Assembly (NCBI GenBank): GCA_951406725.2 | Contig: OX597823.1 | Span: 5,022,001 to 5,086,000, forward strand | Reading direction: 5' to 3' | DNA length: 64,000 nucleotides | DNA from: Octopus vulgaris | Lineage: Eukaryota | Part shown: positions 7,479 to 9,301 of the stretch, piece after piece | Layout of the letters: the number at the start of each line of letters is the position of its first letter | Position numbering within the stretch: the stretch's first letter is position 1 | Notes under the pieces: generated by a model | The model's database searches: none | Seen by the model: the letters and a program-made list of their open reading frames with translations, nothing else | What the model was told of the DNA's origin: nothing | Program-made: the position numbers and the translations under genes

Positions 7479-7650
7479 CTTTATTTAAAAGCAGCAGAAA
7501 TATAACAAAACTGTCCGACGAACGGGAACATGAAACTCCGAGTAACAGTTTTTGTTATATTTCTGCTGCTTTTAAATAAAGCATATTACTCTACCACTGG
7601 TATTTGAGAACTCTTTTTCCCACCTTCTTTCACATTTATGTGCTTACTTC
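7479..7650 (+). mobile_element. Hairpin element with minimal type-I hammerhead ribozyme core (Penelope-like terminal fragment), copy 1
   Basis: 36/37-nt inverted repeat (7479-7514 / 7545-7581) enclosing CCGACGA-ACGGGAACAT-GAAA-CTCCGAG-TA (7515-7544); flanked by (TA)n. Confidence 0.7.
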
Positions 7651-7690
7651 CATATACATATATATATATATATATATATATATATATTTA

Positions 7691-7850
7691 CTTTATTTTA
7701 AGCAGCAGAAAATTCAACAAAATCTGTTACTCTGAGTTTCTCGTTGCCGTTCATCAGACAGTTTTTGCTGCAAAATAAAGCATATTACTCTACCACTGGT
7801 ATTTGAGTACTCTTTTTTCCACCTTGTTTCACATTTATGTGTTTACTCAG
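7691..7850. mobile_element. Same hairpin element, copy 2; hammerhead core on the minus strand
   Basis: Flanks collinear with copy 1, but 7728-7757 reads CTGATGA-ACGGCAACGA-GAAA-CTCAGAG-TA on the minus strand; third partial copy (tail only) at ~7909-7968. Confidence 0.7.
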
Positions 7851-9301
7851 ATATATATATATATATATATATGATATATATATATATATATATTAAATAT
7901 AATATATATATTACTCTACCACTGGTATTTGATATACTATTTTTATACCTTGTTTATACATTTATGTGTATATATATATATATATATATATATATATATA
8001 TATATATATATATATATATATATATATATATTTATATATATATATATATATATATATATATATATATATATATATATATATATATATATATATATATATA
8101 TATATAAGTTTTTTAAAATTATTTCTTGTTTTCTTTTGTTGATGTTGTGTGTTTGATTTTTTTTTTTTCTGAAACACAAATATTTGCAGGTTGGATGAAA
8201 TAAATAAATATGTTTAAAAAATATTTTTAAAAAACCCCCAAAAATAGGAAAATTTTAAAAGAATTTTACAAAAGAGTATGAATAATTTCAAAAAAAGCAA
8301 GTCAAGGTTTAACACAAAATACAGTTTATGACCCATTGTGGCATTGTTGTCATTGTTATCATCATTATCGTCACTTTCATCATCACAGTCATCAACTTTA
8401 CCATCGTTATCATCATCCTCATCACCTTCACCATTGTTGTTGTCATCATCATCTTACTCCTCCTCATAATCATCATTTTCATCACCATCATTGTCATCAT
8501 CATCACCATTATCATCATCCTCATAATCACCATGATGACTACCACATTGTTGTCATCTTCATCCTCATCATTGCCATCACCATCATTATCATCATCATCT
8601 TCATTATAATTATCATCATCATCATCATTTTCGTCATCATCATCATTGTTATCATCAACATTATCATCATCATCATCATCATTCTAGTATCTGTTTTTCC
8701 ATGCTTGTATGGGGCAGACTTTTGTTTGTTGAGGCAGGTTTCTATAGCTGGAGGCTCGTTTTGTCATCAACCGCTCCTTCTTTCCAAGTTAGGTCATATT
8801 TCTCCCTTAATCTTTCAAACATGAAAAGTACAATATCTGGACATGTTTTTGTAGAAGAGTTTTGATAAAAGACAACACTGATGCAATGGTGGTTTCTATT
8901 TACAGTTCGCATGCAATGTCAAGACAAGGCCACATGAACACATGCACCCATTCATATGAATATACATGCATGCATACACACAAGCACATGATGCATACAT
9001 ATATATGTGCTTGTGTGTAGATGTATATGTAAATATATAAGTATATGGCTGTGTGGTTAGGGAGCTTGCTTCCTAGCTACATGGTTTCGGGTTCAGTCCC
9101 ACTGCGTGGCACTTTGGGTAGGTGTCTTCCACTATAGCCCCGAGCCGACCGGAGCTTTGTGATTGAATTCGGTAGGTGGAAGTGCCTCTCCGAAGTGAGA
9201 GAGTGGTATATATGCTATATATATATATATAGAGATATATATATATATATATATATATATATATATATATATAACACATATATATACATATATATATATA
9301 T

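What the first reader, a model, noticed from the sequence alone, without database searches (positions are those of the whole stretch)
7479..7968. Tandem hairpin elements whose hammerhead ribozyme core is flipped between copies
Seen: copy 1 has a 36-bp near-perfect inverted repeat (7479-7514 / 7545-7581) enclosing a 30-nt core CCGACGA-ACG GGAA CAT-GAAA-CTC C GAG-TA. Copy 2 (7691-7850) has the same flanks in the same orientation, but its 30-nt core (7728-7757) is reverse-complemented and reads CTGATGA-ACG GCAA CGA-GAAA-CTC A GAG-TA. The consensus fits a type-I hammerhead: CUGANGA, 3-bp stem II with a GNRA loop (GGAA or GCAA), GAAA, near-palindromic stem III ACUCnGAGU with a 1-nt loop, GUA cleavage triplet, and stem I formed by the long arms. 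Established: minimal hammerheads with palindromic stem III occur in Penelope-like element termini and can cleave as dimers. Inference: the long stem I makes the catalytic core an invertible cassette, so the strand that self-cleaves can switch. Each copy has a damaging substitution, so both may be inactive.
Basis: partly seen in the sequence, partly recalled or inferred. Interest (0 to 1): 0.72.

Follow-up and report, generated by a model that had tools for sequence, protein, structure and literature searches.

The report
Penelope retrotransposon scraps, no flip switch
These hairpins are two of thousands of short scraps of a Penelope-like jumping gene, each made of two truncated pieces joined back to back, so the hammerhead-like motif faces either way depending on where the join fell, likely at the moment of insertion, and there is no sign that it flips afterwards.

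Summary
The sequence is as described; the 'invertible ribozyme cassette' is not supported. Both copies are 3' ends of a high-copy Penelope-like element (PLE): 4,843 exact matches of copy 2's core genome-wide, and a full-length copy with a 711-aa ORF bearing Hydra-clade motifs. Each insertion is a tail-less piece and a tailed piece joined head to head in (TA)n. Of 51 two-piece insertions, 38 have two cores, 8 look like copy 2 and 5 like copy 1; 50 have exactly one tail. Copy 2's inverted piece is 79/79 identical to the native element, including its upstream flank. No body-bearing element with a flipped core was found (0, against 1,693 direct). The copies belong to different subfamilies. Copy 2's supposed damage is the subfamily norm. 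The motif matches published Hydra-PLE hammerheads; cleavage is untested. The architecture is known. Possibly new: 5' ends pile up 11-20 nt upstream of the core, and paired pieces are both short or both long (26:12, 0 mixed).

The parts
7402..7478 (.). (TA)n run, the insertion target
   Evidence: sequence; (TA)n flanks at most family copies
7479..7510 (-). Copy 1, inverted tail-less piece (element positions +67 back to about +35; core start = 0); stops before the core
   Evidence: alignment to family A locus L081; 8-nt overlap 7503-7510 with the direct piece
7503..7648 (+). Copy 1, direct tailed piece (about -12 to +135), subfamily A
7515..7544 (+). Hammerhead-like core of copy 1 (C4 variant; CGT>CAT change in stem II)
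7582..7648 (+). PLE 'tail' (about 70 nt), usually present at one end of an insertion only
7652..7690 (.). (TA)n run between the two insertions
7691..7769 (-). Copy 2, inverted tail-less piece (+67 back to -12), runs through the core into the native upstream flank; subfamily B1
   Evidence: 79/79 identical to native copy L188; loose ends at 7769 continue into the native upstream flank in 4 of 4 runs
7728..7757 (-). Hammerhead-like core of copy 2, identical to the commonest B core
7766..7848 (+). Copy 2, short direct tailed piece; 4-nt microhomology at 7766-7769; 2-nt deletion after 7771
   Evidence: (table 4)
7908..7972 (+). Degenerate tail-only fragment (85% identity)

Best explanation
The two hairpins are independent, 5'-truncated insertions of a Penelope-like retrotransposon with Hydra-clade protein motifs in a (TA)n run; each is a tail-less piece and a tailed piece joined head to head, and the hammerhead-like core points either way according to which piece reached it, likely fixed once at insertion. 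Shown: family, anatomy, join positions, counts. Inferred mechanism: the RT/GIY-YIG protein nicks both strands of TA-rich DNA and primes two cDNAs, one starting at the tail end (+139) and one at the internal site (+67). Both stop early and are joined through a few bases of microhomology, often supplied by the self-complementary stem I. In copy 1 the tail-less cDNA stopped before the core (long perfect hairpin, core direct); in copy 2 it passed the core while the tailed cDNA stayed short (core inverted). The motif is likely a weak, dimer- or protein-assisted ribozyme of the element's pseudo-LTR; cleavage was not tested.
For: High-copy family. Full-length copy L217: hammerhead-bearing repeats 3,495 bp apart around an open 711-aa ORF with RWK, DKT, YRDD, CxCx5C, CxxC and CxH motifs, as defined for Hydra PLEs (PMC8557442 section 11). 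Census of the first 100 exact B cores on contig C1: 51 two-piece insertions, 38 both cores / 8 copy-2-like / 5 copy-1-like, 50 with exactly one tail; core-to-core distances run from 33 bp to about 4.2 kb. Copy 2's left piece is 79/79 the reverse complement of native -12..+67. Flipped core behind the native body: 0 and 0 vs 1,693 direct. Same architecture in print: inverted 5'-truncated copy and one-sided tail (PMC8557442 passages), opposite-strand hammerhead pairs (PMC4209133), two RT start sites and extension of both target strands in vitro (PMC11167929). Published Hydra hammerheads share ctgt / ctga.ga / gaa actc N gagt a / acag (supplement File S2).
Against: No Pfam hit for the ORF and no meaningful PDB hit, so RT/EN identity rests on motifs and a by-eye comparison with published Hydra sequences; no tree was built. 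No Rfam hammerhead hit at E<=10. The one-tail rule has exceptions: L091 in the census, and L035, L037 (two tails) and L220 (none) outside it. One search also listed 25 single pieces; 13 long ones were followed up and most had no partner within 5 kb, so two-piece joining is not obligatory. The two-cDNA mechanism comes from a Poseidon-clade element in vitro, not this family. The inversion tests were exact patterns for subfamily B only.
Confidence: 0.9

Rival explanations
1. Invertible ribozyme cassette: recombination between long stem-I arms flips the core in place, switching the strand that self-cleaves.
For: Copy 1 has 36-bp near-perfect arms and copy 2 an inverted core; copy-2-like forms exist elsewhere, a few with a nearly full right arm (L053, L057, L059).
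Against: Long arms are not native. 38 of 51 insertions carry both orientations together. 0 flipped cores behind the native body vs 1,693 direct. Copy 2's right flank is the native upstream flank. The two copies are different subfamilies.
Confidence: 0.02
2. Copy 2 descends from a flipped non-autonomous master element that multiplied as its own subfamily.
For: 16 of 28 scored copy-2-like loci share one join (30 loci fetched, chosen for likeness to copy 2).
Against: That join occurs in both B1 and B2 backgrounds (6 and 10), sits on a 4-nt microhomology, and an exact pattern for it finds only 12 places genome-wide against 4,843 cores. Other copy-2-like joins differ.
Confidence: 0.05
3. Assembly flip, or a rare one-off inversion after insertion, at this locus.
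For: Short inverted repeats in microsatellites are error-prone (general knowledge); no laid contig covered the unique flank.
Against: Near-identical copy-2 forms stand on other contigs (98-99%), and the piece boundaries match the family's fixed ends.
Confidence: 0.03

Closest known systems
Hydra clade of C-terminal EN+ Penelope-like elements (Craig et al. 2021, PMC8557442), e.g. Hydra-2_Amil, Hydra-2_Ajap, Penelope-13_HM, Hydra-1_Obim
   Same: RWK, DKT, CxCx5C, no CCHH, CxxC/CxH, (TA)n target, 3' hammerhead with ACTC-N-GAGT stem III and CTGT/ACAG stem I; Penelope-13_HM is annotated with an inverted 5'-truncated copy and a hammerhead on both strands.
   Different: A different family from the published octopus Hydra-1_Obim (its listed hammerhead is unlike this one). 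Unit about 3.5 kb with a 1.15-kb 3' UTR vs 'generally <3 kb'. Stem II is only 2-3 bp with a GNRA loop; C4 in subfamilies A and B2.
Poseidon element PAc of Anolis (Frangieh et al. 2024, PMC11167929)
   Same: Two RT start sites bounding the 'tail', AT-rich target, both target strands cut and extended, hammerhead in the pLTR that was not needed for insertion.
   Different: Different PLE clade; shown in vitro there, only inferred from genomic copies here; tail about 70 nt here, 30-40 bp is cited as typical.
Minimal PLE hammerheads (Cervera and De la Pena 2014, PMC4209133)
   Same: Type I, palindromic helix III, thousands per genome, opposite-strand pairs about 100-700 bp apart, low activity in vitro.
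   Different: Here stem II is shorter and the cores are very uniform within subfamilies; no activity data.
Non-LTR retrozymes (bioRxiv 10.64898/2026.07.22.740005, part 1 of 5 read)
   Same: Short PLE-related units with type I hammerheads.
   Different: Retrozymes are head-to-tail arrays with a ribozyme in each unit; these are head-to-head two-piece insertions from different subfamilies.

Membership tests
EN+ Penelope-like element | Single ORF with RT and C-terminal GIY-YIG-type endonuclease | tested here: met
   711-aa open ORF in L217 with FDxxDFYPS, PMG, YRDD and VVY..YTG motifs; 1,953 homologs at E<=1e-10. By motif only: Pfam gave no hit.
EN+ Penelope-like element | Pseudo-LTRs from partial tandem copies | tested here: met
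   L217: hammerhead-bearing repeat on both sides of the ORF.
EN+ Penelope-like element | Inverted 5'-truncated copy at the 5' end; tail at one end only | tested here: met
   51 head-to-head insertions, 50 with exactly one tail.
Hydra clade | RWK, DKT, CxCx5C linker, CxxC and CxH around E/N, no CCHH | tested here: met
   All present in the L217 translation, no Cys between VVY and YTG; 70-72 of 72 long homologs carry each relaxed motif. Several young B copies have CNF in the linker.
Hydra clade | Insertion into (TA)n | tested here: met
   (read by eye, not counted)
Hydra clade | Phylogenetic placement of RT in the Hydra group | not tested
   Reference sequences were seen only as supplement text; no tree built.
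Type I hammerhead ribozyme | CUGANGA, GAAA, UH core with stems I-III | tested here: inconclusive
   Core boxes and stems I/III match published Hydra hammerheads; U4 in 21 of 30 B copies, C4 in 9 of 30 B and 14 of 15 A; stem II 2-3 bp; minimum-energy monomer folds are not the hammerhead; stem III self-duplex -9.4 to -9.8 kcal/mol.
Type I hammerhead ribozyme | Match to an Rfam hammerhead model | tested here: not met
   No hammerhead family at E<=10 in window 5000-11000 or in intact copy L188.
Type I hammerhead ribozyme | Self-cleavage after GUA | not testable with these tools
   Only contigs were available; 4 of 102 piece 5' ends lie at +21..+35, so no pile-up at the cut site +30.
Non-LTR retrozyme | Head-to-tail tandem units, each with a hammerhead | tested here: not met
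   Head-to-head pieces; the two window copies are different subfamilies.
Invertible DNA cassette | Same flanks found with either orientation of the inner segment | tested here: not met
   0 flipped vs 1,693 direct behind the native upstream flank; single-locus read test inconclusive.

The most novel reading that the evidence does not exclude
The thousands of short head-to-head scraps are complete cDNAs of the element's own 5' leader: transcription starts about 17 nt upstream of the hammerhead in the upstream pseudo-LTR, a PLE dimer primes at both tail-bounding sites of that leader, and two run-off cDNAs are joined. This would explain why 41 of 102 piece ends fall at -20..-11, why 4,022 cores reach -12 but only 1,693 reach -21, and why paired pieces are both short or both long (26 and 12, 0 mixed; Fisher P=3.7e-10). 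It would make this family a genome-scale in vivo record of two-primer PLE integration. Alternatives: an RT stop at the base of stem I, or joining at the CTAG palindrome at -14.
Probability: 0.3. Interest if true: 0.55.

Novelty: new member of a known kind. Interest (0 to 1): 0.3.

Why it matters
The headline claim, a switchable ribozyme, falls. What remains is a young, high-copy Hydra-type PLE family with at least one open full-length ORF. How PLEs make their inverted and tailed insertions is described as unresolved in the papers read. The near-strict one-tail rule and the short/long pairing seen here give countable in vivo constraints on that mechanism, and L217 is a candidate substrate for an in vitro test.

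Tried and rejected
Rfam scans of the window region and of an intact copy: no hammerhead model hit. Pfam and PDB sequence search: nothing useful. Reads: all 24 listed runs are Logan contigs; laid on the window they covered only the repeat, not the unique flank, so orientation at this locus stays open. Three guessed-RNA runs and one DNA run laid on the pLTR-ORF start hold family sequence but cannot show starts, cleavage or strand. Enrichment of 5' ends at the ribozyme cut site: not seen (4 of 102 at +21..+35). My early label 'Neptune-type' (note) was dropped after reading the Hydra definition. Earlier scan findings: none. Literature: 0 papers held hammerhead ribozyme + inversion + invertible + retrotransposon; octopus + hammerhead ribozyme + Penelope gave only PMC8557442; one search gave nothing on two-primer PLE insertion. 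These searches cover open-access text only.

Full report
Observation. The window lies at G000:C10:5022001-5086000 in a 2.8-Gb, 227-contig, microsatellite-rich genome; 'octopus-like' is my inference, not a tool result. The arms (7479-7514 / 7545-7581), the 30-nt core (7515-7544) and the reverse-complemented core at 7728-7757 are as described. A third, tail-only fragment lies at 7908-7972.

A large family. Copy 1 gave 2,108 first-look candidates (40 scored). Copy 2's core pattern has 4,843 exact matches, and a relaxed core pattern 9,879 with 0 for the reversed control. Longer copies continue upstream into a 3' UTR and an ORF. L217 (C1:216.48 Mb) holds hammerhead-bearing repeats 3,495 bp apart around an open 711-aa ORF; the upstream repeat has the tail, the downstream one ends tail-less in (TA)n. 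The protein has RWK, DKT, YRDD, CxCx5C, CxxC and CxH motifs and no CCHH, the features given for the Hydra clade of PLEs (PMC8557442, section 11 read whole). It has 1,953 homologs at E<=1e-10. Pfam and PDB gave nothing useful, and no tree was built.

Anatomy of insertions. Positions are counted from the core start. I took the first 100 exact B-core matches on contig C1, fetched all of them and mapped pieces onto real copies. There were 51 two-piece insertions, each an inverted piece followed by a direct piece: 38 with a core in both pieces, 8 with a core only in the tail-less piece (copy-2-like), 5 only in the tailed piece (copy-1-like). Fifty of 51 have exactly one tailed end (about +139) and one tail-less end (about +67). 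One search also listed 25 single pieces, three of them neighbouring insertions outside the list; L114, seen as a single piece, dropped out of that script's output. The sample needs one exact core, so core-less insertions are invisible and two-core ones are favoured. Exceptions outside the census: L035 and L037 have two tails, L220 none.

The two window copies. Copy 1 is subfamily A: a tail-less inverted piece 7479-7510 that stops before the core, overlapping by 8 nt a tailed piece 7503-7648. That makes the 36-bp hairpin; the native stem I is much shorter. Copy 2 is subfamily B1: 7691-7769 is 79/79 the reverse complement of native -12..+67, then a 4-nt microhomology and a short tailed piece. 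In 4 of 4 laid runs, contigs leave the window at 7769 into the native upstream flank. So the whole left piece is inverted, not a core between fixed arms.

Direct test of the cassette idea. In-place flipping between stem-I arms would put a flipped core behind the native upstream flank. Two patterns covering crossovers in the stem found 0 and 0, against 1,693 in the direct orientation. These are exact patterns for subfamily B. The commonest copy-2 join occurs in both B1 and B2 (6 and 10 of 28 scored; 30 loci fetched) and an exact pattern finds it at 12 places, which fits recurrence at a microhomology better than one flipped master. Orientation in reads at this locus could not be tested because no contig covered the unique flank.

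The hammerhead. In copies chosen by upstream sequence, not by core, 19 of 30 B cores equal copy 2's; the A-A or A-G apposition at the base of stem II is in all 30; C replaces U4 in 9 of 30 B and 14 of 15 A copies. These are family states, not damage. Published Hydra hammerheads have the same stem I/III layout, often with an extra base on each side of stem II (supplement File S2). PMC3088659 (passages) reports 2-bp stems II, a mismatch at 10.1-11.1 in active ribozymes, and a U4C variant that is weak in vitro but sufficient in a viroid. Against activity: no Rfam hit, monomer folds that are not the hammerhead, and no pile-up of 5' ends at the cut site. Minimal PLE hammerheads were weak in vitro (PMC4209133, parts 1-2 of 4), and the Anolis one needed protein and was dispensable for insertion (PMC11167929, parts 1-2 of 4).

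Mechanism. Shown: two fixed 3' ends, head-to-head joins with short overlaps or small inserts, (TA)n flanks. Inferred: both target strands prime a cDNA, one from each start site, and the two are joined. This matches the in vitro behaviour of the Anolis Poseidon protein (two start sites bounding the tail, both strands extended) and the known PLE architecture (PMC8557442 passages; Penelope-13_HM annotation).

What may be new. 41 of 102 piece 5' ends fall at -20..-11; genome-wide, 4,022 cores reach -12 and 1,693 reach -21 (part of the drop is mutation). Among the 38 two-core insertions, 26 are short/short, 12 long/long and none mixed (Fisher P=3.7e-10; threshold -100). Of 13 long singles followed up, none had a short core-bearing partner; one had a tail-only partner and four showed internal inversions. 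This suggests two template classes, perhaps the transcript's 5' leader versus its 3' end. An initiator-like YYANWYY at -17 (consensus recalled, low information) is only a hint. My searches found no such census, but they cover open-access text only; of the supplements, only those of PMC8557442 were read, in part.

Verdict. New member of a known kind; the flip is an outcome of the join position. Interest 0.3.

Noticed in passing
window about 10505-10540, - strand: A second, unrelated minimal hammerhead-like motif with 4-bp stem I and no real stem III; a U4 version of it lies beside L088. Probably another PLE family.
   Followed up: no
L217:4243-7810 (G000:C1:216.48 Mb): Full-length copy with an open 711-aa ORF between two hammerhead repeats; candidate active source element.
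   Followed up: partly
window about 4600-4795: Inverted pair of what look like tRNA-derived SINE heads (label recalled) forming a long hairpin.
   Followed up: no
window 18401-20246, - strand: Broken non-LTR retrotransposon ORF pieces with RT motifs and what looks like a restriction-like endonuclease end (clade not tested).
   Followed up: no
window 51747-52012 and 55117-55382: 266-bp direct duplication at 98.9% identity.
   Followed up: no
L119:4437-6858: A more distant, broken Hydra-like ORF (33% to P0001) upstream of a family A copy, also with an inverted piece.
   Followed up: no
L237, L239, L247, L248: Long copies with internal 5' inversions whose pieces barely overlap or overlap by a few hundred bases, unlike the two-ended joins.
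   Followed up: no
subfamily B1 cores, e.g. L188:1524-1553: U4 plus an A in loop III lets the CUGA box pair with stem III in the predicted monomer fold, which would mask the core.
   Followed up: partly
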